Virus record (IMG/VR): IMGVR_UViG_3300014773_000009
Span: 30,868-94,867 of that record
Reading direction: 5' to 3' (one strand)
From: a virus
Taxonomy: Duplodnaviria; Caudoviricetes
DNA length: 64,000 nt
A program made the position numbers and the translations under genes. The stretch's first letter is position 1. The number at the start of each line of letters is the position of its first letter. This document shows positions 19,245 through 64,000 of the stretch, piece by piece. The notes under the pieces are model-generated. The model was given only the letters and a program-made list of their open reading frames with translations, ran no database searches and was not told the DNA's origin.

Positions 19245-19272
19245 AGTATGCGCGCAGATATCTGCGCGTCAA
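19245..19272 (-). promoter_or_regulatory. Promoter with perfect 18-bp palindromic operator
   Basis: TTGACG-N16-CATACT; palindrome CGCGCAGATATCTGCGCG at 19251-19268. Confidence 0.7.
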
Positions 19273-19290: not shown

Positions 19291-20316
19291 TCAGAAAATC
19301 CCCCTGGGGATGGCTGGGAACAGGTCCTCCGTCTTGGTGGCCAGCGACCGGCCACGGCGCATGTAGCGCTGGGTGGTCATGATCTGCGCGTGGCCCACCC
19401 TCTCCATGATGTCGCCGATGGGGTCTCCACGCATCGCCCACCACGTGATGCCGGTGGCACGCAAGTCGTGGAAGTTGATGGGCCGCCGCTGGTCGTCGTT
19501 GGCGAAGAGTTCGGCGCGGTCGCATCCGGCGCGCGCCAGGTCCCGCCGGAGCGTCACTGCGGCATCGCCTCGGCCCCATGTGACCACTTGCTCATGGGCC
19601 TTCTGCCGCCCACGGATTGCTCGCAGAAGCTCCAGCACGGTCGGCTCCACGATGAACCGTCGGTCGCATCCTGTCTTGGTGGGACCCACCGCTCCTGTTT
19701 CTGCGCTCGTTGACCGGTACACGTGGATCCGCCCGGAGCGCAGGTCGATGTCGCTCCAGGTCAGCGCAGCGAGTTCGCCAGCCCGTGGCGCAATGTAGAC
19801 CGCGAGCGCGTACGCCCGACGCCGGGCTACCGGCAGTGCGCTGCATCGGAGCAGACGAACGACCTCGTCGGGGTAGAGGAACGTGGCGGCGCGGTCGTGC
19901 CCTTGGTCGGGACCGCGCACTCCAGAAGTGATGTCGTCGTCGCGCACCCGAAGCTCGCGACGTTTGGACCGGCTCAAGTCGCGCAGCATCGCGCGCATGA
20001 AGATCCATCGTCGGCGAGCTGTCCCCCACCGGATGGCATCCTGAGCGACCAGGTCGTCTATGCTCTCGACCCACGACGCGACGTCGTCGCGGGTCATCGT
20101 GTGCACATCGAGCCGACCAAGCGCGGGAGATACGAAGCGCTGGTACATGGTCCACTCGCGCTCACGCCCGAGCGAGCGACGGTGCTCAAACCAGCGGGTG
20201 ACCCAGTCGTCCAGCAGCTCGGTCGCGCGACGTTGGTGTCCGCCGGTCATGCGCTCGAGCCGGTCGGCGATCGCCCGCAGCTGCGCGACGACGGCCAACA
20301 GCTCGGTCACGTCCAC
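19291..20316 (-). CDS. Tyrosine recombinase (second copy, no arm-binding domain)
   Basis: APRAGE (R), TKT (K), HDLR, GH, QRY. Confidence 0.9.
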   Translation of the reverse strand: MDVTELLAVVAQLRAIADRLERMTGGHQRRATELLDDWVTRWFEHRRSLGREREWTMYQRFVSPALGRLDVHTMTRDDVASWVESIDDLVAQDAIRWGTARRRWIFMRAMLRDLSRSKRRELRVRDDDITSGVRGPDQGHDRAATFLYPDEVVRLLRCSALPVARRRAYALAVYIAPRAGELAALTWSDIDLRSGRIHVYRSTSAETGAVGPTKTGCDRRFIVEPTVLELLRAIRGRQKAHEQVVTWGRGDAAVTLRRDLARAGCDRAELFANDDQRRPINFHDLRATGITWWAMRGDPIGDIMERVGHAQIMTTQRYMRRGRSLATKTEDLFPAIPRGIF

Positions 20317-20837
20317 TCCATCGGCTTCGTGTCGCCGCGCAGGTACAGCGGGTGGCGAGGCTGGCCACGCTGGGTCAGCCCGAGATGGTAGAGCCTGCGG
20401 CCGGAGCCTCGCAGCGTCTCGCGCACGAATGCGTCACGGTCGCGCAATGCTCCGTGCGAGCCCCACGCGCAGACGATGATGTCGGCGGTCGTCGACGCGC
20501 TCACGATACGCCCGATGTTCTGCGGGTCGCCCTCAGCCTGCGCGTCGCTGTACAGCGCGCGCGGGTCCGTCGAGCGCAGCGAGAACAGGTTTCGGATCTC
20601 GAGCGCGGTGCAGTGCCACGCCTTGGCGAACCCAATGCAGCGGCGGATCGTGGGGTCGTTGTTTTCGTGGTCCGCTGTCGAAGGGTTGAGCATCACGAAG
20701 AGCGCCGTCTTCGGCTCGGGCCTCGAAAACATGCCGTGGTCGATCACGCGCGAGAGCTCGTAGCGATGGCGCAGGTCTTGGCTGAAGACAGCGCCACCGA
20801 ATCCGGCGAGGTACACGGGGAGCACGATGTCACCCAC
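20307..20837 (-). CDS. DUF1643 family protein
   Basis: FVMLNPSTAD..NDPTIRRC, NLFSLRSTDP, AWG, PRHPLY. Confidence 0.9.
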   Translation of the reverse strand: MGDIVLPVYLAGFGGAVFSQDLRHRYELSRVIDHGMFSRPEPKTALFVMLNPSTADHENNDPTIRRCIGFAKAWHCTALEIRNLFSLRSTDPRALYSDAQAEGDPQNIGRIVSASTTADIIVCAWGSHGALRDRDAFVRETLRGSGRRLYHLGLTQRGQPRHPLYLRGDTKPMEWT

Positions 20838-21036
20838 AGTCCGGCTCCTTCCGCGCGCACTCGCTGCACACCACGAACGCGCCGCATGCTGTGCCATCGT
20901 CGAGCGTCAGGTCGTGCTCGATCGAACACATGTCTCTGCACGGTTCGGCCTCGTGGCACTGTGGGCAGCGGTGTACGTGGTCGCCAATCGCGAGTGGTCG
21001 CGGCGACTGCATGTAGATCGTAAACGTCTCACCCAC
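20830..21036 (-). CDS. Small Cys-rich protein
   Basis: CPQC...CSEC; flanked by the 19-bp repeats. Confidence 0.6.
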   Translation of the reverse strand: MGETFTIYMQSPRPLAIGDHVHRCPQCHEAEPCRDMCSIEHDLTLDDGTACGAFVVCSECARKEPDCG

Positions 21037-21047
21037 AGTCCGGCTCC
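20830..21047. repeat. 19-bp direct repeat at two consecutive gene junctions
   Basis: TCACCCACAGTCCGGCTCC at 20830-20848 and 21029-21047. Confidence 0.9.
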
Positions 21048-21235
21048 GCGTCGCTGCCGCTGGCTCGGTCGATGCCAGTCGCTGCTCGCGACAGCGAATC
21101 GACGTGAACACACGGAGCAGAACCGCCACACGGGAGGTGCCACGCTCGCTCGCGACCAAGCAGCGCGCCGCAGCCGGTGCAGACCCACGGCATTCGTGGT
21201 CGCCTCTTGTTGCCAGCGAATCGATTCGCCTTCAC
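21029..21235 (-). CDS. Small Cys-rich protein
   Basis: CTGC; coupled start and stop. Confidence 0.5.
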   Translation of the reverse strand: MKANRFAGNKRRPRMPWVCTGCGALLGRERAWHLPCGGSAPCVHVDSLSRAATGIDRASGSDAEPDCG

Positions 21236-22026
21236 CCCTCACCTCCTGCCGCCAGCGCGAACTTTCTGTACGGCTCACCTGCCGGCATGTGTCGTCGTAG
21301 GCGTCGATCGAGTGCCCACGCGTACCGGAGGTTCCCCGGGTGTCGAGCGGTGCGCGTGAGCCGTGGCAGCCACGTCGCGACCCACTCTCTCCCGCGCGTC
21401 GGGTCGAGCAGCGGCTCCGCCCCGTGCGCCACCAGCATGCGCATCGAGTACCGCCAACCGCGATCACCAGACCGGATCTTCTGGATGGCGCGCGCGCTCA
21501 AGACGTGCCCGTCAGGCAGCAGGCGCACGGTGCGCGGGTTTGCCTGACCCAGGAACACGCCGTTGTGCGCCTGGTAGATGGTCCCGATGTGGCCTGCGAA
21601 CACCAGCGATCCGGAGGCGCTCCTGCGCGGCATCGGATCCGAGAAGCTCAGGACCATGTCTGCGTCGTGGCGGAGCAGGTCCCAGCACCGCGCCAGCGTC
21701 CACGTTTCGGCGTTGGCCGGAACACGATCCAGCAGCACGAACCGAGACAACTCGATGGGCGTGCCAGGCAGGCGCGCGGCTTGGACTGCGGCGGGAAACG
21801 GGTCCGAGAACACCGCGACGCCGACGAGCTCGCCACGGTCGAATAGGCCGAACCGGAAGCGAGCCGCTGGGTAGCTGGCCGCGTAGTGATGCCTCTCGAC
21901 GAACGCCTTCACCGTCGCGTCTTGTTCGATGGGTGCCACGTCGAGCGTGGCGGTGGAGACGACCTCGCCCGCCGGTCGGTAGTGATCGCGCCGATCGCGC
22001 CAGCGCTGGCACACGGCGGTCAGCAT
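21232..22026 (-). CDS. Mom-like (GNAT-fold) DNA modification protein
   Basis: FVERHHY, LVGVAVF, ELSRFVL, NAET, SFSDP, GHIGTIYQAHN. Confidence 0.8.
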   Translation of the reverse strand: MLTAVCQRWRDRRDHYRPAGEVVSTATLDVAPIEQDATVKAFVERHHYAASYPAARFRFGLFDRGELVGVAVFSDPFPAAVQAARLPGTPIELSRFVLLDRVPANAETWTLARCWDLLRHDADMVLSFSDPMPRRSASGSLVFAGHIGTIYQAHNGVFLGQANPRTVRLLPDGHVLSARAIQKIRSGDRGWRYSMRMLVAHGAEPLLDPTRGREWVATWLPRLTRTARHPGNLRYAWALDRRLRRHMPAGEPYRKFALAAGGEG

Positions 22027-23414
22027 GACTCCACCGCCAACTCGTTCATGTCCCAGAGGTCAGAGAGGTGGTCGACGTCCGCGCGCATCCTGGCGACGTC
22101 GAAGCCACCTTTGGCGAGACCAGGTCGCCGCTGCTCCTGTTCACCCGCGGTGCAGTCAGCGCCGAATCGCGAGCAGTTACGGCCACCAGCTGGTGGGCTG
22201 TTAATCACCGGGTCGCTGGTTCGAGTCCAGCAGCTGGAGCCAAAAATCACGCAGAACTCGCTGCGTGGCGTGGGCACCAAGACCCCAAAATCCTGCGGTG
22301 AGTTCTCCCGCTTTCGAGGCTCCTGATACACCGGCGCTACAGCGCGCAGCATGCGCGCTGCGAGTTCTTCGCGGCTGAACCGTCCGTAGGTGGTCTCCAC
22401 CATCCGCGTGTCCACGTGGCCCATGCTGGGCCCGATGAGCTCCACCGGCATGCCCGCGGCGCGCATCCAGTGGGAGTAGGTTCTGCGGAGGTCGTTGGCT
22501 GAGCATGGCTCGATGCTGGCGCGGCCGCACGCGTCGCGCAGGTCGCGCACGTTCTTCACCCACGGGCGAAACAGGCGACCGGCATCCTTGTTCGCGGCGC
22601 CGGCGAGCGCGTGCTTGAGCAGTTCGCGCTGCCACGTCGTCACGATGGGAACCCAGCGCTCGCTCGCGTCGGTCTTGGTGCCGCGCACGCGAACGAAGCC
22701 AGCGTCGAGGTCGATGTCCACGCGCTCTGCCCGGTCGCTCTCCCCAAGGCGTGCGGAAGTGGCCACGATGAACGCCACCCGAGCGGCGCGATCTGCGGCG
22801 ACCATGTTGTGCCACGGCCATTTCGCTCCACGGTCGCGCCCGAGCTCGACCAACAGCTGGTCGAACTCCTCTCGCACGAGCCACCGCTGACGCGGTTGGT
22901 AGCCGGGCGAGAACCCGATCGGCATGATCTTGGCGAGGTCGCCGTCCCAACGGTCGCGGCGCTTCGCGAGTCGGAGCGTCTTGCGGAGCACGACCAGCTC
23001 TTTGCTGATGGTGTTGGCGGTCACGCCCTCGTCGCGGCGCAGCGCGATGTACCCGTCCACATGCCGCGCAGCCAGGTCGCTCGCGAGCGTGGGGAGCACG
23101 AGCTCGCCTTCGGCGTCCTTGGTCTGGAGCGCGCGCACGAGGTGACCGGCACGCGCCGTGTAGAAGTCGACGGTCGCGGTGGACAGCTTGCCCTCCTTCG
23201 CCTGCGCCCAGCACTCCGCGATCATGTCGTCGAGCGCGGACTCGAGCGTGGTCGTGCTGGTCGTGTGATTGGGATCAGCCGACTCCCGCTCGAGACGTCG
23301 TGCGACCTGCTCAGCCGCCGCGCGGTCGTGGCACTTGGTGGATCGCGTCTGCCGTTCGCCGGCGCGATCGTAGAACTGCGCGTACCAGACCCTGCCTCGC
23401 TTGAAGACCCGCAC
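22020..23414 (-). CDS. int: Phage integrase (tyrosine recombinase) whose 3' end spans attP
   Basis: Arm-binding-like N-terminus (VFKRGRVWY...RSTK); ARLGE, GTKT, NDLRR, MGH, TTY; GGAGGT RBS. Confidence 0.9.
   Translation of the reverse strand: MRVFKRGRVWYAQFYDRAGERQTRSTKCHDRAAAEQVARRLERESADPNHTTSTTTLESALDDMIAECWAQAKEGKLSTATVDFYTARAGHLVRALQTKDAEGELVLPTLASDLAARHVDGYIALRRDEGVTANTISKELVVLRKTLRLAKRRDRWDGDLAKIMPIGFSPGYQPRQRWLVREEFDQLLVELGRDRGAKWPWHNMVAADRAARVAFIVATSARLGESDRAERVDIDLDAGFVRVRGTKTDASERWVPIVTTWQRELLKHALAGAANKDAGRLFRPWVKNVRDLRDACGRASIEPCSANDLRRTYSHWMRAAGMPVELIGPSMGHVDTRMVETTYGRFSREELAARMLRAVAPVYQEPRKRENSPQDFGVLVPTPRSEFCVIFGSSCWTRTSDPVINSPPAGGRNCSRFGADCTAGEQEQRRPGLAKGGFDVARMRADVDHLSDLWDMNELAVESC
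22198..22242 (+). mobile_element. attP core: 3' half of tRNA-Asn(GTT)
   Basis: CTGTTAA-TCACC-GGGTC-GCTGG-TTCGAGT-CCAGC-AGCTGGA-G-CCA: anticodon loop, T-arm, acceptor strand, G discriminator and CCA; no D-arm upstream. Confidence 0.88.
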
Positions 23415-23581
23415 CGCATCACCTCCGCCACGTACTGCTCCCAAACCGACCGCGGGACTCGCAGGATGCCACGAGCTCCGCGCTTGCGCTGCACCGCTCT
23501 TCGCATGTGCGCATACGCCGTCGACTCCACCACGTCGAGCGACGCCATCACCTCCTGCACGGTGACGAACTCGGCGCTCAT
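23222..23581 (-). CDS. Excisionase-like HTH protein
   Basis: VTVQEVMASLDVVESTAY...ILRVPRSVW; overlaps the int start. Confidence 0.65.
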   Translation of the reverse strand: MSAEFVTVQEVMASLDVVESTAYAHMRRAVQRKRGARGILRVPRSVWEQYVAEVMRCGSSSEAGSGTRSSTIAPANGRRDPPSATTARRLSRSHDVSSGSRLIPITRPARPRSSPRSTT

Positions 23582-24699
23582 GGCATCTCCTGCATCTCGC
23601 GCGCCACGCGCGAGAGGTAGCCGCATCCATCGATGTGCGGACCAGGATCCTCAACGTCGGTCATGCATGGGCACACTGGCCACGTGTCTCCCGGCATCAT
23701 CCGCGCGCGCAGGCCAGCGGGCCACTCCGACATGTCTCCGCCCTTGCGGTCCTTCAGCGATCGCACGCCTAGCGGTCTCGACCCGAGCTGCTTCACGAAC
23801 GCCGGCACACCTGCTGCGCGGCACTGCTCCACGATGTCGTGGACCCACCGAACGTCGCACGGCCTGGCGCCGGGTCCGCTTTCGCCGCCAACGATGACCC
23901 AGTCGATTCTCGCGACGTCGCGGCACGGTCTGCCCATGTCTGAGTGTCGACCGGTGAGCGCGTCTACCTGGCACATGCTTGTATGTCCGGCGCGGTCGGC
24001 GTCCAGGTGCCTGAGATTGATCTTCTCCAATAGCGGCTCACACGACAAGAACCGCACGGTTGCAGGTGTTTGGAGCAGATGCGGAATGCGCTCGTCTGCG
24101 CGCTGCTGGTCTTCAACGCTCACGCCCAGGTGGACGTTGCGCAGCGGCCATTGCTGGAAAACAAGGTATCCATGCTTGTCGAGGTCGTTGAGCAGCCTAC
24201 GGCTCTGGTGCGTTCCTGGAGGCAATGCTCCAGCCTGCTCGGCGCACAGCTCGCAGCGAGAGATCGTGCCTGCGGCTAACGGCTCCGCGGTGAACGAGTC
24301 GACCCACATGAACCAGCGTCGCATCCGCTCTGTGCGCTTGGTGAGGACTTGGAACGTGTGCTGCGGCGCCGCTGCCATCACTCCGAAGACGGCAGCGATC
24401 TGCTCGTTGGTGTTCTGCTCGAAGAACAGATCGCCCATGTCGCAGACGAAGATGCGCGATGGGCTGCGCAGTCGAAGCGGCATCGTGAGGTCCTTGCCCC
24501 ACAGCCGAGACTCGCCAGTCCACCGCGGGCCGCCCTGCCTCTCCGACCACTGTGCGAGCCCGGCGTACTTGGGCAGGTGTCGCAATCGCGTGGCCGTAAG
24601 CCGCTCGGCGTAGCAGTTCGCACAGCCTGGGCTGGTCCGCAGGCACCCGTTGAGGACGGGCCAGCTGTGGTCGGTCCACTCGATGTTGGTCTTACCCAT
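23578..24699 (-). CDS. DUF5131 (Gp37/Gp68) radical-SAM-like protein
   Basis: TNIEWTD, GC...SPGCANCYA, LTKR, FLSCEPLL, WVIVGGESG, FVKQLG. Confidence 0.92.
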   Translation of the reverse strand: MGKTNIEWTDHSWPVLNGCLRTSPGCANCYAERLTATRLRHLPKYAGLAQWSERQGGPRWTGESRLWGKDLTMPLRLRSPSRIFVCDMGDLFFEQNTNEQIAAVFGVMAAAPQHTFQVLTKRTERMRRWFMWVDSFTAEPLAAGTISRCELCAEQAGALPPGTHQSRRLLNDLDKHGYLVFQQWPLRNVHLGVSVEDQQRADERIPHLLQTPATVRFLSCEPLLEKINLRHLDADRAGHTSMCQVDALTGRHSDMGRPCRDVARIDWVIVGGESGPGARPCDVRWVHDIVEQCRAAGVPAFVKQLGSRPLGVRSLKDRKGGDMSEWPAGLRARMMPGDTWPVCPCMTDVEDPGPHIDGCGYLSRVAREMQEMP

Positions 24700-25096
24700 C
24701 GTCTCGCTCCAAGCAATTCCACTGCCCGCTCTTCGCGCGGACATAGTCGCGCCACGAACCGCCGAACTCGCGGCGACACTCGGCGAGTTCGGCCATCGTC
24801 GGATGGCCGCGCATGATCGGCGAGTCGCCGGCCTCGTGCAGGCGGACCCGCTTGGTGATTTGGAAGCGTAGGTGACCCGGAGCCGACGGACACACCGCTC
24901 CACGCCAGCAGCGTTTGTGACACTCGACCACAAAGCGCGTCAGTAGCGAGTCGTCGAACGTGCTCGCGCCAGGTCGTCCAACGTAGATCGAGACGCTGAA
25001 GACGCGGCCACCGTCGTGGCGGATGTCGCGGTCGCGCATGTGGCGCTGGAGCGCGGCCTCGAACAGCGCTCGGGCCTGGGCGGCTAGGTCGCTCAT
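24692..25096 (-). CDS. Hypothetical protein
   Basis: Coupled ORF in the leftward operon. Confidence 0.5.
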   Translation of the reverse strand: MSDLAAQARALFEAALQRHMRDRDIRHDGGRVFSVSIYVGRPGASTFDDSLLTRFVVECHKRCWRGAVCPSAPGHLRFQITKRVRLHEAGDSPIMRGHPTMAELAECRREFGGSWRDYVRAKSGQWNCLERDDG

Positions 25097-36592: not shown

Positions 36593-36621
36593 AACGTAGT
36601 TACGTAATCCGAACGTGTCAA
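36593..36621 (-). promoter_or_regulatory. Strong leftward promoter (PL-like)
   Basis: TTGACA-N17-TACGTT; TTACGTAA palindrome in the spacer. Confidence 0.75.
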
Positions 36622-60305: not shown

Positions 60306-62198
60306 ATGGCGCTGATCACAGACCCCGACCTGCTCGATGACTCTGCCGTCGATGATGGGAGCCAGGAGGTGTACGTCAACACCACGACCAAGACGGTGAA
60401 GCTGAACACCGTCGGCAACCTGTCGACCGACGGCGTCACCGGAAAGGCGCTCTACTCGTTCCTCAAAGAGGAGTGGAGGAACGACCCGCACAGCAAGAAC
60501 CTCGCGGCCTTCCCGTTCCCGCTCGTTCCGATCACCGACGAGTTCTTCGAGTGGGTCGAGGGGTGGGACCTGCTGAACGACACCGGGCGCAACCTCATCC
60601 GGAACTCGGGGTGGCTGGTCCGCAACACCAGCGGCAACGTGACCCAGCACTTCGCCGGGGTGAAGACCACCGGCACGACCGAGAGCAACGACCAGCTCTA
60701 CTACGAGCTCGACGGCGCGAGCGGCAAGGGCTCGCCAACCAACTTCGTGCTCACAGGCTCCGCCAACCAGGCGGTCAAGATCATCGACGACCCGAACGGC
60801 GACGGCAACTACGCCGACGGCTTCTCGCGCACCACCAACGTCAAGGTCTTCAACCGCGAGCAAGGCCAGGCGTTCTCCCTGAGCTCGACCTCGGCCAACG
60901 GCGAGGCCACGCTCACGGCGCCCAAGGTCTTCGGTCTCGACGCCAGCACGAGCAACGATCTGAAGGTGTCCGACGCAGACGCGAAGGTGGCTCTCGCCGG
61001 CGCCATCGCAAGCGCATCGTGGACCGGCGGGGTGGCCACCATCAACACCAGCGCCGCTCACGGGCTCACCAGCGGCGACTACGTCGCCATCGCTGGCGTT
61101 ACCCCCGCCGGCTACAACGTCCGTGGCGTCGCGACGGTGATCGACACCGACACGTTCACGATCCCGATCGCGAGCGACCCCGGCGCCTACAGCAGCGGAG
61201 GCACGGTTGGCTCGGTCTACAGCCTGATCCGCGTGCGCTACTTCGACCAAGCGTTCACGCGCGACGTCGACTCCACCACCGACCGCAACTTCGGAATCGT
61301 GGTGGATGTGGGTACGCACTCCGGGGTCGACGGATCGTTCTCCAACGGCGGTTCGGTGCTCACCACCACTGAAGGCGGCATCGCCACGGAGAACAACCCA
61401 TTCGCTGGTGGCACGCTGGTGGTGCACGAGGGCGCAGCCGCCGGCACCTATCCGATCAGCGGCAACCCAACGGCGACCACGGTGACCATCACGGGCACGT
61501 TCCCTGCAGCAGGGACGAACGTCTCGTTCACCATCAAGCCCGCGACAGCTACGCCCGCAACCGCGGAGCAGATCTACACCAAGGTCCAGTACCTGCTGCG
61601 CCAAAACGCGGACATCGACTCCACCGATCAGAGCGTGATCGGAAAGGTCGCAGACCAGCTGATGCACTTCATCGGCGCCACGCTGGTCTGCGGACGGTCG
61701 CTGTCCGCGGTCCAGCCCACCAACCCGAACGGTGGCGGCTCGGGCGTCATCATCGAGGGCTTCATGTCGGCCGACACCAACCGACTGACCTTCTACGACA
61801 ACACCAACACCGCCCGCACCTACCCGTTCGTCGCGGTGCTGACGTTGCTCTTCGGGGCCAACCTCGTAGCCGACGGGAGCGCCAAGTACTGGGTCTACTT
61901 CAGTACGCTGCCTGGCGGCGGGAACGACTACGGGGAGAGCGGGGCGCTCATCGTGGACGACAACGCGGGGGCAGACATGGCCGGAAACGTTTCCGGGCAG
62001 AACAGCATCCAGCACACGTTCAACTACGATGGCAACGTCCAGGGCGGTCGCACGGCGGGGACGGATGCGGCCATCACCATCATCGGTATCGGCCTCGCCA
62101 CCGGCCAGTACGTGCGCGCCACCGGCACGATCGAGCGGTCGACATCCAACAGCGTGTCGCTCGTGGCCGCGCTCGAGCGCAACTACGCCAACCCGTGA
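60306..62198 (+). CDS. Virion structural protein
   Basis: 630 aa, T/G/N-rich; beta-domain ATINTSAAHGLTSGDYVAIAGV...YN...TFT. Confidence 0.65.
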   Translation: MALITDPDLLDDSAVDDGSQEVYVNTTTKTVKLNTVGNLSTDGVTGKALYSFLKEEWRNDPHSKNLAAFPFPLVPITDEFFEWVEGWDLLNDTGRNLIRNSGWLVRNTSGNVTQHFAGVKTTGTTESNDQLYYELDGASGKGSPTNFVLTGSANQAVKIIDDPNGDGNYADGFSRTTNVKVFNREQGQAFSLSSTSANGEATLTAPKVFGLDASTSNDLKVSDADAKVALAGAIASASWTGGVATINTSAAHGLTSGDYVAIAGVTPAGYNVRGVATVIDTDTFTIPIASDPGAYSSGGTVGSVYSLIRVRYFDQAFTRDVDSTTDRNFGIVVDVGTHSGVDGSFSNGGSVLTTTEGGIATENNPFAGGTLVVHEGAAAGTYPISGNPTATTVTITGTFPAAGTNVSFTIKPATATPATAEQIYTKVQYLLRQNADIDSTDQSVIGKVADQLMHFIGATLVCGRSLSAVQPTNPNGGGSGVIIEGFMSADTNRLTFYDNTNTARTYPFVAVLTLLFGANLVADGSAKYWVYFSTLPGGGNDYGESGALIVDDNAGADMAGNVSGQNSIQHTFNYDGNVQGGRTAGTDAAITIIGIGLATGQYVRATGTIERSTSNSVSLVAALERNYANP

Positions 62199-62664: not shown

Positions 62665-64000
62665 ATGCCGAAGATCCGGGCGAAGGACTTCAACATCCAG
62701 ACGGGCAACGTCTCGTCTGTGACGGTGGTCATGCCGCCCCACGAGACTGGAGATCTGCTACTCGTGTTCGCAGGCAAGGACGACGCGACGGGCAACGACC
62801 CGAGCACCGTCACAAGCGGCTGGACGCGCGGCGGCAGTAGCGCATCGGCAGGAGCGACGACCGCGGCGGTGCGGTCAGCCTGGTTCTACAAGGTCGCAGC
62901 TAGCTCCGCTGAGCCCGACCTCGTCATCACCTCGAGCGACGCGGACACGTGGTCCATCATTGCGATGTCGATCGCTGGCGCGCACGCGACACCGATCGAT
63001 GCATCGAGCGGCAACGGCAGCACCGACGCGACGGGGTCGCCGTTCACCGTGACGGGCGTGACCACGAACTTCGACCACTCGCTCGTGGTCTTTGCGTGCC
63101 TCTCTGGTGGCACCGGCTGCCCCATGCCGTACCCAGGTCTGCAGCTCATCGACGCAGTCGACTCCGCAGCCGAGGGACTCGGGTGCGCGTACACGGTCAA
63201 GGCCACCGCTGGGGCCACCGGCAACAAGGACTTCTACACCGACGCACTCAACACGAATACCGTCGGGTTCTGCGTGGCGGTCCGCGACGACGGCACGTCA
63301 GGGCAGCGGGCGGCGTATTGGGATGCGGACTACGCGACGCTGGTGCACCCATTCCGCGGGTCGGTCGCGATCATCACCAGCGACGTGTGGGGCACAGCGC
63401 TCACCACCTACCCACAGCTCGGGAAGGACGCGGTGGACTACTGCGTCCAGGTCGACCAGTCGGGAGGGCCGAGCTACGTCGACTACACGACGGCAGCGAA
63501 CAACTCGACCGACGCTGATGTGACACCGTACCCAGCGACCGAGGCCGCGGGCGCGGAGGGCACCGGCGACTGGTTCGCGGTCGGCTACGAGAAGCCGTTC
63601 AACTCGCTCGTCTTCGATCGAGCTGGGTGCACGCAGGGTGTGGCCGGCGTGGTGGCGTGGGAGTACTACAACGGCACGGCCTGGGTCGCGCTGACGAGCG
63701 TCACCGACGGGACCACGTCGTTCACCGCCACGCTGGGCGACGGGCAGGAAGTGCGCTGGGCGTTCCCTCCCAATTTCAACTGGGCGAAGACCAGCATCAA
63801 CGGCAGCGCGTCGCTCTACTTCGTGCGCGCTCGTTGCACGACGGTGTGGACCACCAACCCCACCATCTCGCAGGTCTACATCGGCGGGCGCGCACTGCTG
63901 TACGACGCGATCGGATCGGCCGGTGACGCAGGCGTTGTGCAGTTCGAGAACGCCTCGCTCTTCACGCCGGCCACCAGCACCGTGCAGGCCGGGGGGACGT
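62665..64000 (+). CDS. Large virion/tail-fibre-like protein (3'-truncated by the window; absent from the ORF track)
   Basis: MPKIRAKDFN...GDLLLVF...GWT...WFYKVA...WEYYNGTAW; frame appears open to the window end. Confidence 0.65.
   Translation, partial: MPKIRAKDFNIQTGNVSSVTVVMPPHETGDLLLVFAGKDDATGNDPSTVTSGWTRGGSSASAGATTAAVRSAWFYKVAASSAEPDLVITSSDADTWSIIAMSIAGAHATPIDASSGNGSTDATGSPFTVTGVTTNFDHSLVVFACLSGGTGCPMPYPGLQLIDAVDSAAEGLGCAYTVKATAGATGNKDFYTDALNTNTVGFCVAVRDDGTSGQRAAYWDADYATLVHPFRGSVAIITSDVWGTALTTYPQLGKDAVDYCVQVDQSGGPSYVDYTTAANNSTDADVTPYPATEAAGAEGTGDWFAVGYEKPFNSLVFDRAGCTQGVAGVVAWEYYNGTAWVALTSVTDGTTSFTATLGDGQEVRWAFPPNFNWAKTSINGSASLYFVRARCTTVWTTNPTISQVYIGGRALLYDAIGSAGDAGVVQFENASLFTPATSTVQAGGT

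What the first reader, a model, noticed from the sequence alone, without database searches (positions are those of the whole stretch)
22020..22242. attP inside the integrase ORF may act as a double switch: rewrites the Int tail and cuts off a Mom/DUF1643/second-recombinase block
Seen: the tRNA-Asn 3' half (22198-22242) lies inside the int frame, about 59 codons before its stop. The int stop (22020) overlaps the start of the Mom-like gene (22026), and genes then run coupled down to 19291 with no obvious internal promoter. Known: myxophages Mx8 and Mx9 carry attP within int, and Mx8 integration alters the Int C-terminus; Mu mom is toxic and tightly controlled. Inference: integration swaps the Int tail and moves mom-DUF1643-recombinase 2 to the other prophage end, away from its promoter, so DNA modification would be licensed only after excision.
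Basis: partly seen in the sequence, partly recalled or inferred. Interest (0 to 1): 0.82.

Follow-up and report, generated by a model that had tools for sequence, protein, structure and literature searches.

The report
Attachment site inside phage integrase gene
A roughly 95-kb temperate phage of soil myxobacteria (Polyangiaceae) carries its docking site, the last 45 bases of the host tRNA-Asn gene, inside its own integrase gene, so integration should swap the enzyme's 58-residue tail for 7 residues (a trick known from myxophage Mx8) and move the downstream Mom DNA-modification genes to the far prophage end, which is topologically true but unproven as a control.

Summary
Bases 22198-22242 (+) are identical to the 3' 45 nt (anticodon loop to CCA) of tRNA-Asn(GTT) genes in seven Polyangiaceae/Myxococcales MAGs. 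They lie antisense inside a tyrosine-integrase ORF (23414..22020, 464 aa), 58 codons before its stop. That stop overlaps the Mom start (ATGCTGA). The record has no tRNA gene and has phage DNA on both sides, so this is the unintegrated attP form.

Relatives confirm the tail swap. Integrated copies end ...VINSHLLY(Q/R)LS* inside an intact tRNA-Asn. Ten free-form relatives keep long tails with a shared motif (LPGLAKAVRxLxxxWDxxE) whose substitution pattern is coding-like. Modelled recombination gives a 413-aa IntX and regenerates the tRNA.

This is the Mx8/Mx9 architecture in an integrase with no detectable similarity to Mx8 Int. This scan has already reported the same family on other Polyangia phage DNA.

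The second switch is only partly supported. The topology is right, the genes are tightly packed, and no sigma70-like site as good as the phage's own lies between about 36.6 kb and 19.3 kb. But the same topology exists in Mx8 and lambda. A terminator-like hairpin sits just upstream of the core. Mom lies downstream of int in only one other relative. No expression data could be obtained.

Verdict: new member of a known kind, moderate interest.

The parts
22198..22242 (+). attP core: 45 nt identical to the 3' part (anticodon loop to CCA) of host tRNA-Asn(GTT)
   Evidence: Exact matches in 7 Polyangiaceae/Myxococcales MAG tRNA-Asn genes. No whole tRNA in the record.
22020..23414 (-). Tyrosine integrase IntP, 464 aa, reading through the core; catalytic Tyr343 lies upstream of the core
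   Evidence: PF00589 and phrog_1 hits. Start set by GC3 frame switch and homolog N-termini. AF2 model confident for residues 1-360.
22020..22197 (-). IntP-specific tail: 58 codons plus stop, lost on integration. Carries the conserved motif PGLAKG...VDHLSDLWDMNE.
   Evidence: In-silico attL. Motif shared by 10 free-form relatives. Codon-position identity 0.50/0.49/0.36. AF2 gives low confidence, with a helix at 440-463.
21232..22026 (-). Mom-family DNA-modification gene, 264 aa; its ATG overlaps the int stop (ATGCTGA)
   Evidence: PF25680 71.6 bits, phrog_1384. Sequence read. Homologs align from residue 1.
21029..21235 (-). Small ORF, 68 aa, whose GTG overlaps the Mom stop (GTGA); no family match
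20307..20897 (-). DUF1643 protein. The true start may be later, because family matches begin at residues 35-45.
   Evidence: PF07799 128 bits, phrog_3230.
19291..20316 (-). Second tyrosine recombinase, 341 aa; last gene of the block; overlaps the DUF1643 stop by 10 nt
   Evidence: PF00589 56.6 bits, phrog_1. Only weak Xer-like NCBIfam similarity.
19245..19272 (-). Sigma70-like promoter TTGACG-N16-CATACT with a perfect 18-bp palindrome in the spacer; starts the next transcription unit just after recombinase 2
22248..22267 (-). Terminator-like hairpin (7-bp stem) followed by ATTTTT, on the int-sense strand 5 nt before the core
   Evidence: Scan. Fold -14.1 kcal/mol, z -2.2. Not conserved in relatives.
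22253..22368 (.). Cluster of three G(C/T)GAGTTCT copies at 22253-61 (-), 22298-306 (+) and 22360-68 (+): candidate arm-type Int sites inside int
   Evidence: There are 32 hits in 64 kb overall, of which 3 fall within 116 bp here.
22183..22196 (.). Perfect 14-bp palindrome CCACCAGCTGGTGG abutting the core on the tail side
   Evidence: Sequence. Function unknown.
23222..23581 (-). HTH (excisionase/Uoi-like) ORF starting at ATG 23581, in another frame, running on over the int start
   Evidence: GC3 frame switch. Weak HTH_17 match, E 0.05. Same position as Mx8 uoi, but no sequence similarity to it.
23578..24933 (-). DUF5131 gene upstream of int, co-directional with it
   Evidence: PF07505 239 bits.

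Best explanation
The window shows the unintegrated (attP) form of a roughly 95-kb temperate phage whose host is a Polyangiaceae myxobacterium.

The site. Its attachment site is a 45-bp copy of the 3' part of the host tRNA-Asn gene. The copy lies antisense inside the 3' part of the phage's tyrosine-integrase gene, downstream of the catalytic tyrosine.

What integration does. Recombination probably crosses over at the anticodon-loop end of the identity block; this is inferred. It regenerates an intact tRNA-Asn at attL. It converts the 464-aa IntP into a 413-aa IntX, whose last 58 residues are replaced by 7 residues (HLLYRLS) read off the antisense tRNA. The stop codon comes from the D-loop. The lost tail is a flexible segment ending in a conserved amphipathic motif. 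By analogy with Mx8 IntP/IntX it most likely modulates recombinase activity or directionality; this is also inferred.

Effect on neighbouring genes. int lies inside a long leftward co-directional array. The same event therefore moves the last 2.9 kb of that array (Mom, small ORFs, DUF1643 and a second tyrosine recombinase) to the opposite prophage end, facing the host flank. This separation is a necessary topological consequence. Whether it is the operative control of Mom expression is not shown. I put that at about 0.35. Ordinary repressor control of the upstream promoter would already silence the whole array in a lysogen.
For: - Exact 45-nt identity to tRNA-Asn in 7 Polyangiaceae MAGs, and no identity outside it.
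- No tRNA gene in the record, and phage genes on both sides.
- The two record ends share a 106-bp repeat, consistent with a circular or terminally redundant genome.
- In-silico attL regenerates the tRNA and gives IntX of 413 aa.
- Relatives at 51% and 46% identity end ...VINSHLLYQLS* or ...VVNSHLLYRLS*. For the former (P0006; L011-L013) ARAGORN calls an intact tRNA-Asn over that end, with host genes beyond.
- 79 of 119 listed homologs carry an antisense-tRNA peptide in their C-terminal part.
- 10 free-form tRNA-Asn members share a tail motif. Third codon positions are the least conserved there: 0.36 against 0.50 and 0.49.
- In all 8 free-form contexts seen, int is followed by co-directional genes, mostly with stop/start overlaps.
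- Minus-strand sigma70-like sites scoring 9 of 12 occur only at 36621, 19272 and 13980 (plus one far away at 60379). None lies between int and Mom.
- The Mx8 precedent is stated in the review PMC6070905.
Against: - No integrated or second free copy of this very phage was found, so its own integration is inferred from relatives.
- The AF2 model gives the tail pLDDT below 50, so there is no structural hint of what it does.
- The tail motif in this phage carries a 10-residue insertion relative to relatives.
- A terminator-like hairpin plus T-run lies on the int-sense strand immediately before the core. It could stop transcription before both the int stop codon and Mom.
- The consensus promoter scan is weak evidence in a 67% G+C phage with possibly non-sigma70 promoters.
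Confidence: 0.8

Rival explanations
1. Full double switch. Mom, DUF1643 and recombinase 2 have no promoter of their own and are transcribed only by read-through from the int side. DNA modification would then be possible only in the circular genome, after infection or after excision, and would be physically impossible in the lysogen.
For: - ATGCTGA overlap of the int stop and the Mom start.
- All junctions down to 19291 are overlaps or a few bases, and a clear promoter with operator begins the next unit at 19272.
- No site scoring 9 of 12 between 36621 and 19272 on the minus strand.
- The closest Mom-bearing relative, L009, also has int, orf69, orf77 and Mom joined by overlapping stops and starts.
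Against: - A hairpin plus ATTTTT lies on the int-sense strand just upstream of the core.
- Relative L044 has a promoter-like AT-richer gap right after int.
- The cargo downstream of int differs among relatives, and Mom in 5 Polyangiaceae genomes lies beside methylases or DnaB, not beside int or att.
- The array would be repressed in a lysogen anyway, so the split adds little.
- The same topology in Mx8 and in lambda's b region is not known to act as a modification licence (own knowledge).
- No expression data.
Confidence: 0.3
2. The long ORF is only read-through in stop-poor high-G+C DNA. The functional Int ends soon after the catalytic domain and the 58-residue tail has no function, so integration changes nothing that matters for the enzyme.
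For: - AF2 gives the tail very low confidence.
- Tails of the non-Asn family members look like arbitrary Arg-rich sequence.
- GC3 signal is flat across the core and the first half of the tail.
Against: - Ten diverged free-form relatives (41-59% overall identity) share the motif LPGLAKAVRxLxxxWDxxE after the core.
- First and second codon positions are more conserved than third.
- The last 30 codons show coding-type GC3 of 0.83 in the int frame.
- Mx8 shows that such a swap alters Int behaviour (PMC6070905).
Confidence: 0.12
3. The attP is a relic. The phage now lives as a plasmid-like or purely lytic element and uses the second tyrosine recombinase (19291..20316) for dimer resolution or for integration elsewhere.
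For: - A second, complete tyrosine recombinase is present.
- No integrated copy of this phage was found.
Against: - The 45-nt identity to extant host tRNA-Asn genes is perfect.
- Int keeps all family-invariant residues, including K247, R310, H333 and Y343.
- Relatives are found integrated at exactly this site.
Confidence: 0.05

Closest known systems
Myxococcus phage Mx8 IntP/IntX (and Mx9 Int): attP inside int
   Same: - The attP core lies within the integrase coding sequence, downstream of the catalytic region.
- The target is the 3' end of a host tRNA gene.
- Integration creates a recombinant int with a new, shorter 3' end (review PMC6070905).
- A small HTH gene (uoi) overlaps the int start.
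- int sits in the middle of a long co-directional gene array (Mx8 record).
- The host is a myxobacterium.
   Different: - No detectable sequence similarity to Mx8 Int (BLASTP E 0.63) or to Uoi.
- The target is tRNA-Asn rather than tRNA-Asp (the Mx8 target is from own knowledge).
- The host family is Polyangiaceae.
- The genome is about 95 kb rather than 49.5 kb.
- The genes immediately downstream are Mom, DUF1643 and a second recombinase, instead of small unknown genes and replication genes.
Phage lambda int-attP-sib retroregulation and b-region transcription from pL (own knowledge)
   Same: A promoter on one side of attP reads through int and across attP in the circular genome. Integration separates the sequences beyond attP from that promoter, which changes expression according to integration state.
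   Different: In lambda attP lies outside int. The element beyond attP is an RNase III site that controls int mRNA stability, not a cargo operon. The lambda case is demonstrated experimentally, whereas here nothing is.
Tn916-type circularisation-dependent expression of transfer genes (own knowledge)
   Same: Genes at one end of the integrated element are expressed only when excision joins them to a promoter at the other end.
   Different: Tn916 is a conjugative transposon with random-ish targets and no tRNA att. The dependence is shown experimentally there, and is only a topological possibility here.
Fusellovirus SSV1 integrase, split by integration
   Same: The att site lies inside the int gene and the target is a tRNA gene (PMC5861418).
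   Different: In SSV1 the gene is cut into two parts and inactivated. Here only a post-catalytic tail is exchanged. SSV1 is an archaeal virus.
Phage Mu com-mom
   Same: A Mom-family protein sits at the end of a transcription unit, and its start codon is overlapped by the preceding ORF. In relative L009 that preceding ORF is a 77-aa Cys-rich protein, in the same position as Com.
   Different: In the window the overlapping upstream ORF is the Int tail, not a zinc-finger protein, and no Com-like gene was found in the genome. The Dam/OxyR/C control known for Mu (own knowledge) has no visible counterpart here.

Membership tests
Tyrosine recombinase / phage integrase (PF00589) | Match to the family profile above the curated cut-off | tested here: met
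   PF00589 36.8 bits against a cut-off of 27.1. phrog_1 integrase E 6e-33.
Tyrosine recombinase / phage integrase (PF00589) | Catalytic residues R...K...HxxR...H/W...Y | tested here: met
   K247, R310, H333 and Y343 are invariant in 50 aligned family members. The first His of HxxR is Asn (N307) throughout the family. The first Arg lies in ATSARLGE; its column is not invariant in the alignment.
Tyrosine recombinase / phage integrase (PF00589) | Arm-binding N-terminal domain typical of phage integrases with complex attP | tested here: inconclusive
   AF2 predicts a three-stranded sheet plus helix at residues 1-46 with pLDDT above 95. Three G(C/T)GAGTTCT repeats lie beside the core. Binding was not tested.
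Mx8-type 'attP within int' architecture | att core lies inside the int ORF, downstream of the catalytic Tyr | tested here: met
   The core at 22198-22242 corresponds to codons 392-406 or so of 464, and the catalytic Tyr is residue 343.
Mx8-type 'attP within int' architecture | Core is identical to the 3' part of a host tRNA gene, and integration restores the tRNA | tested here: met
   45/45 identity to tRNA-Asn in 7 MAGs. The modelled attL is called as an intact tRNA-Asn by ARAGORN.
Mx8-type 'attP within int' architecture | Integration yields an Int with a different C-terminus | tested here: met
   Modelled: 58 residues replaced by 7. Observed in natural integrated relatives P0006 and P0009; for P0006 (L011-L013) the ORF end overlaps an intact tRNA-Asn. 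Not observed for this phage itself.
Mx8-type 'attP within int' architecture | The two Int forms differ in activity or specificity | not testable with these tools
   Needs recombination assays. Only indirect support is available: a conserved tail motif with coding-type substitution pattern.
Mx8 Int protein subfamily (homology) | Detectable sequence similarity to Mx8 Int | tested here: not met
   BLASTP E 0.63. tblastn against 50,697 phage records finds no myxophage. The architecture is analogous, but the protein is not a member of that subfamily.
Mom family (PF25680) | Profile match above cut-off | tested here: met
   71.6 bits against 27.1, profile positions 2-158 of 202. phrog_1384 'Mom-like DNA modification protein' E 7e-25.
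Mom family (PF25680) | Adenine modification activity, and toxicity needing tight control | not testable with these tools
   No assay is possible. No Com-like partner was found in the window genome.
Excision-licensed operon (Tn916 / lambda-sib type logic) | The regulated genes have no promoter of their own on their side of att | tested here: inconclusive
   There is no sigma70-like site scoring 9 of 12 or better between 36621 and 19272. The best site near Mom scores 8 of 12 with a poor -10. Consensus scans cannot exclude other promoters.
Excision-licensed operon (Tn916 / lambda-sib type logic) | Transcription actually crosses att from the promoter side | tested here: inconclusive
   Overlapping stop and start argue for it. 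A hairpin plus T-run just before the core argues against unimpeded read-through.

The most novel reading that the evidence does not exclude
In this large myxobacterial integrase family the removable C-terminal module (flexible linker plus the LPGLAKAVR...WD..E helix) is a built-in directionality or activity determinant. The act of integration would then convert the enzyme from an integration-competent to an excision-biased or attenuated form. In this phage lineage the same crossover would also serve as a physical licence, allowing the toxic Mom-type DNA modification module to be transcribed only from the circular genome. Genome topology, rather than a repressor, would store the lysogenic state for both functions.
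Probability: 0.2. Interest if true: 0.65.

Novelty: new member of a known kind. Interest (0 to 1): 0.38.

Why it matters
The finding gives a clean, host-assigned example (Polyangiaceae, tRNA-Asn) of the Mx8-style 'attP inside int' design. The integrase lineage is unrelated in sequence to Mx8 Int.

It adds to the evidence that this design is the rule for a large family of myxobacterial integrases. At least 79 of 119 listed homologs carry an antisense-tRNA peptide in their tail.

The conserved, removable tail is a testable candidate for a self-editing control of recombination directionality.

Integrase and attP pairs from Polyangiaceae could also be useful as integration tools for these genetically difficult natural-product producers, as Mx8 int-attP is for Myxococcus.

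The Mom-licensing idea, if shown, would be a neat phage counterpart of circularisation-dependent expression in Tn916. At present it is only a topological possibility.

Tried and rejected
- The search for related loci with Int in viral contigs found no relative.
- A homology search restricted to the tail (residues 385-464) returned only the protein itself.
- Exact-pattern scans of viral contigs and metagenome contigs found nothing, both for the predicted attL junction and for the phage-side core junction. No second copy of this phage, integrated or free, is on hand.
- I looked for Mom next to attR in host genomes. Mom homologs in 5 of 383 Polyangiaceae genomes lie beside a C5 methylase, an N6/N4 methylase or DnaB, with no family Int or tRNA fragment within about 10 kb. 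The 'Mom at the prophage end' pattern is therefore not general.
- I examined a complete 76-kb element in G219, bounded by tRNA-Phe and its 48-nt repeat, for a co-directional attR-proximal block. The attR-proximal gene there is convergent.
- I first thought the last 22 codons of int were a fused remnant of the small ORF that follows int in L009. A six-sequence alignment instead places them in the conserved tail motif, with a 10-residue insertion upstream.
- The terminator-like hairpin is not conserved in relatives and overlaps a candidate arm-site repeat. I do not claim it as a terminator.
- The AF2 model of IntP gave no confident placement of the tail. No fold search or complex prediction was run because the tail model is too poor.
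- Pfam found nothing for the small ORFs or for the Cys-rich L009 ORF.
- The ORF 20907..21467 listed mechanically is a wrong-frame artefact.
Full report
WHAT IS THERE

The window is bases 30868-94867 of a 94,867-bp virus record that CheckV rates complete. The two ends of the record share a 106-bp direct repeat, offset by 4 nt. The genome is therefore probably circular or terminally redundant. It has 64-72% G+C, no tRNA gene and no Rfam match.

On the minus strand a long co-directional gene array runs from about 36 kb down to about 12.5 kb. Within it, in order:
- DUF5131 (23578..24933).
- A small HTH ORF starting at ATG 23581.
- A tyrosine integrase.
- A Mom-family gene (21232..22026).
- Small ORFs.
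- DUF1643 (20307..20897).
- A second tyrosine recombinase (19291..20316).

The mechanically listed int ORF of 544 aa begins too early. The GC3 frame plot switches frame near 23430. All homologs begin M-R-x-x-K-R-G-R-x-W-Y. Int therefore starts at GTG 23414 and has 464 aa.

THE OBSERVATION

The plus strand at 22198-22242 reads CTGTTAATCACC...GCTGGAGCCA.
- A 42-nt version of it occurs exactly in seven stretches of the 185,579-species genome collection. All seven are Polyangiaceae or Myxococcales MAGs.
- In each the match lies in a tRNA-Asn(GTT) gene called by ARAGORN.
- The alignment shows identity from the first base of the anticodon loop through CCA, 45 nt, with unrelated sequence on both sides.
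- The fragment lies antisense in the int frame, where it encodes ...GSSCWTRTSDPVINS.
- The catalytic tyrosine (Y343, TTYGRF) is 50 residues upstream of this peptide. 58 further codons follow before the stop.
- The stop TGA (22022-22020) and the Mom ATG (22026-22024) form ATGCTGA.

Both flanks are phage DNA and no whole tRNA is present, so the site is in the attP configuration.

EVIDENCE FROM RELATIVES

A search of 5.8 billion proteins gave 178 homologs.

Integrated forms:
- Two of the closest, P0006 (51% identical) and P0009 (46%), end ...CWTRTSDPV(I/V)NSHLLY(Q/R)LS*.
- On the contigs that encode P0006, the end of int overlaps an intact tRNA-Asn on the opposite strand, and ordinary host genes follow: polysaccharide deacetylase, DUF3224 and an AraC regulator.
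- These are natural attL forms. The stop is the TAA complementary to the TTA of the D-loop.

Modelled integration of this phage:
- I recombined the window with the tRNA-Asn locus of one MAG in silico.
- attL is called as an intact tRNA-Asn.
- Int becomes 413 aa, identical to IntP through residue 406, then HLLYRLS*.

Free forms:
- Ten other homologs with the same antisense tRNA-Asn peptide have long tails.
- They are only 41-59% identical overall, yet share a motif after the core: a conserved Cys, then (L)PGLA(K/R)(A/G)V(R)xLxxx(W/F/Y)Dxx(E/D).
- Among six of them with DNA in hand, pairwise identity in the tail is 0.50, 0.49 and 0.36 at codon positions 1, 2 and 3. That is the pattern of protein-level constraint, not of a conserved DNA site.
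- The tail is therefore a real, translated, conserved module that integration removes.
- AlphaFold2 with a 50-sequence alignment models residues 1-360 with pLDDT above 90. The tail stays below 50, apart from a low-confidence terminal helix (440-463) that coincides with the motif. It looks like a flexible tether with a terminal helix.

Family-wide picture:
- Of 119 listed homologs, 11 carry the tRNA-Asn antisense peptide and 68 carry G-I-E-P-(P/A)-T, the antisense T-arm of other tRNAs.
- Family members in Polyangiaceae genomes sit with their 3' ends in tRNA-Phe or tRNA-Arg genes.
- attP inside int is thus the rule in this family.
- This scan has already reported the same conclusion on other Polyangia phage DNA, with tRNA-Leu, Thr and Arg targets. 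My tests agree with those notes independently.

RELATION TO Mx8

The review PMC6070905 states three things:
- Mx8 attP lies within int.
- Integration creates a new 3' end that modifies rather than inactivates the enzyme.
- Mx9 integrates by a similar principle, site-specific recombination between attachment sites in the phage and host genomes.

The Mx8 record shows more shared architecture:
- uoi, a small HTH gene, overlaps the int start.
- int is embedded in a long co-directional array that continues into replication and structural genes.

The proteins themselves are not detectably similar. Int against Mx8 Int gives BLASTP E 0.63. The HTH ORF against Uoi gives no alignment. A tblastn against 50,697 phage records finds only distant Pseudomonas phage integrases. 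The architecture is the same; the protein family is not.

THE SECOND SWITCH

With the tRNA on the plus strand, the prophage would read as follows:
- Host, then tRNA-Asn (attL), then int' reading outward into the tRNA, then the rest of the phage.
- At the far end: recombinase 2, DUF1643, Mom, the 178-bp tail-coding segment, the core (attR) and the host.
- Mom would have to be read from the host side, across the hairpin of the tRNA's own terminator.

In favour of dependence on upstream transcription:
- Every junction from int to recombinase 2 is an overlap or a few bases.
- Right after recombinase 2 there is a clear promoter, TTGACG-N16-CATACT, with a perfect 18-bp palindrome.
- On the minus strand, sites that good occur only at 36621, 19272 and 13980 (plus one far away at 60379). 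By this crude measure int and Mom belong to one 17-kb unit.
- In L009, the closest relative with DNA in hand (Int 56%, Mom 68% identical), the order is int, a 69-aa ORF, a 77-aa Cys-rich ORF and Mom, all joined by GTGA or ATGA overlaps.
- In all eight free-form contexts the genes after int are co-directional. In most a start codon overlaps the int stop.

Against:
- On the int-sense strand a 7-bp G+C-rich hairpin followed by ATTTTT lies 5 nt before the core (-14.1 kcal/mol, z -2.2).
  - If it terminates, neither the int stop codon nor Mom would be reached.
  - It is not conserved in relatives.
  - Half of it is one of three clustered G(C/T)GAGTTCT repeats that look like arm-type sites. Its meaning is therefore open.
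- Relative L044 has an AT-richer 119-bp gap with a promoter-like TTGCGT...TACTAT directly after int.
- The downstream cargo differs between relatives. DUF1643 is upstream of int in L009.
- Mom homologs in five Polyangiaceae genomes lie in methylase or replication modules, far from any int or att.
- In one complete 76-kb element of the family, the attR-proximal gene is convergent.
- The same promoter-int-attP-downstream-genes topology exists in Mx8 and in lambda (own knowledge). There it is a by-product of gene order, apart from sib.
- A lysogen's repressor would silence the whole array anyway.
- No RNA or read data could be obtained.

VERDICT

The attP-in-int reading and the tail swap are solid, at about 0.9 for the architecture. 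A functional consequence of losing the tail is about 0.5. They represent a new member of a known kind, already seen repeatedly in this scan.

The Mom-licensing idea is a legitimate and testable hypothesis. It rests on correct topology and tight packing, but it has no direct support and several counter-indications, so I put it at about 0.3-0.35.

Noticed in passing
G000:C1 bases 5-110 and 94762-94867 (outside and at the end of the window; window 63895-64000): The two ends of the record share a 106-bp direct repeat, offset by 4 nt at the start. The genome is probably circular or terminally redundant, although the collection classes it as linear.
   Followed up: partly
window 19245-19272 (-): Sigma70-like promoter TTGACG-N16-CATACT with a perfect 18-bp palindrome, CGCGCAGATATCTGCGCG, in the spacer. 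It lies immediately after the recombinase-2 stop and starts the next (IbrA/GNAT/IbrB) unit. No further copy within 3 mismatches occurs in the window.
   Followed up: partly
window 36621 (-), 13980 (-): These are the only other nearby minus-strand sites scoring 9 of 12 against the sigma70 consensus. The one at 36621 (TTGACA-N17-TACGTT) could head the roughly 17-kb leftward unit that contains int and Mom.
   Followed up: no
window 22253-22261 (-), 22298-22306 (+), 22360-22368 (+): Three copies of G(C/T)GAGTTCT lie within 116 bp, inside the int coding sequence beside the core. The background is 32 hits in 64 kb. They are candidate arm-type integrase binding sites.
   Followed up: partly
window 22183-22196: A perfect 14-bp palindrome, CCACCAGCTGGTGG, directly abuts the core on the tail side. 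Its CCAGCTGG also occurs in the tRNA acceptor/T-stem part of the core. Absent from relative L009.
   Followed up: no
window 23222-23581 (-): The HTH (weak HTH_17) ORF upstream of int has no stop until 23222, about 190 nt into int in another frame. Its real end is unclear. It occupies the same position as uoi in Mx8.
   Followed up: partly
L009:3485-3718 (+): In the closest Mom-bearing relative, a 77-aa Cys-rich (zinc-finger-like) ORF overlaps the Mom start. This is the position that Com holds in phage Mu. It has no Pfam match and no homolog in the window's genome.
   Followed up: partly
Int residue N307 (window about 22494-22496): The whole integrase family has Asn instead of the first His of the HxxR catalytic motif. 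It is invariant in 50 aligned members.
   Followed up: partly
window 20907-21467 (-): The mechanically listed 186-aa ORF between Mom and DUF1643 is a wrong-frame artefact (Arg/Cys/Trp-rich). The space is filled by small ORFs with GTGA-type overlaps, for example 21029..21235.
   Followed up: partly
window 23578-24933 (-): The DUF5131 protein (PF07505, 239 bits) has a weak local match to the NCBIfam 'radical SAM mobile pair protein A' (E 1e-8, far below cut-off).
   Followed up: no
G219:C1:493655-569752 (L047, L048): A 76-kb integrated element in a 16-Mb Polyangiaceae genome is bounded by tRNA-Phe and a 48-nt repeat of its 3' part. A family integrase ORF ends inside the tRNA.
   Followed up: partly
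L039:8270-10665, L042:2103-4802, L038:5761-10383: Mom homologs (46-53% identical) in Polyangiaceae genomes sit next to a C5 cytosine methylase, an N6/N4 methylase, or DnaB and DUF1643. This suggests Mom travels in DNA-modification or replication modules in myxobacterial prophages.
   Followed up: partly
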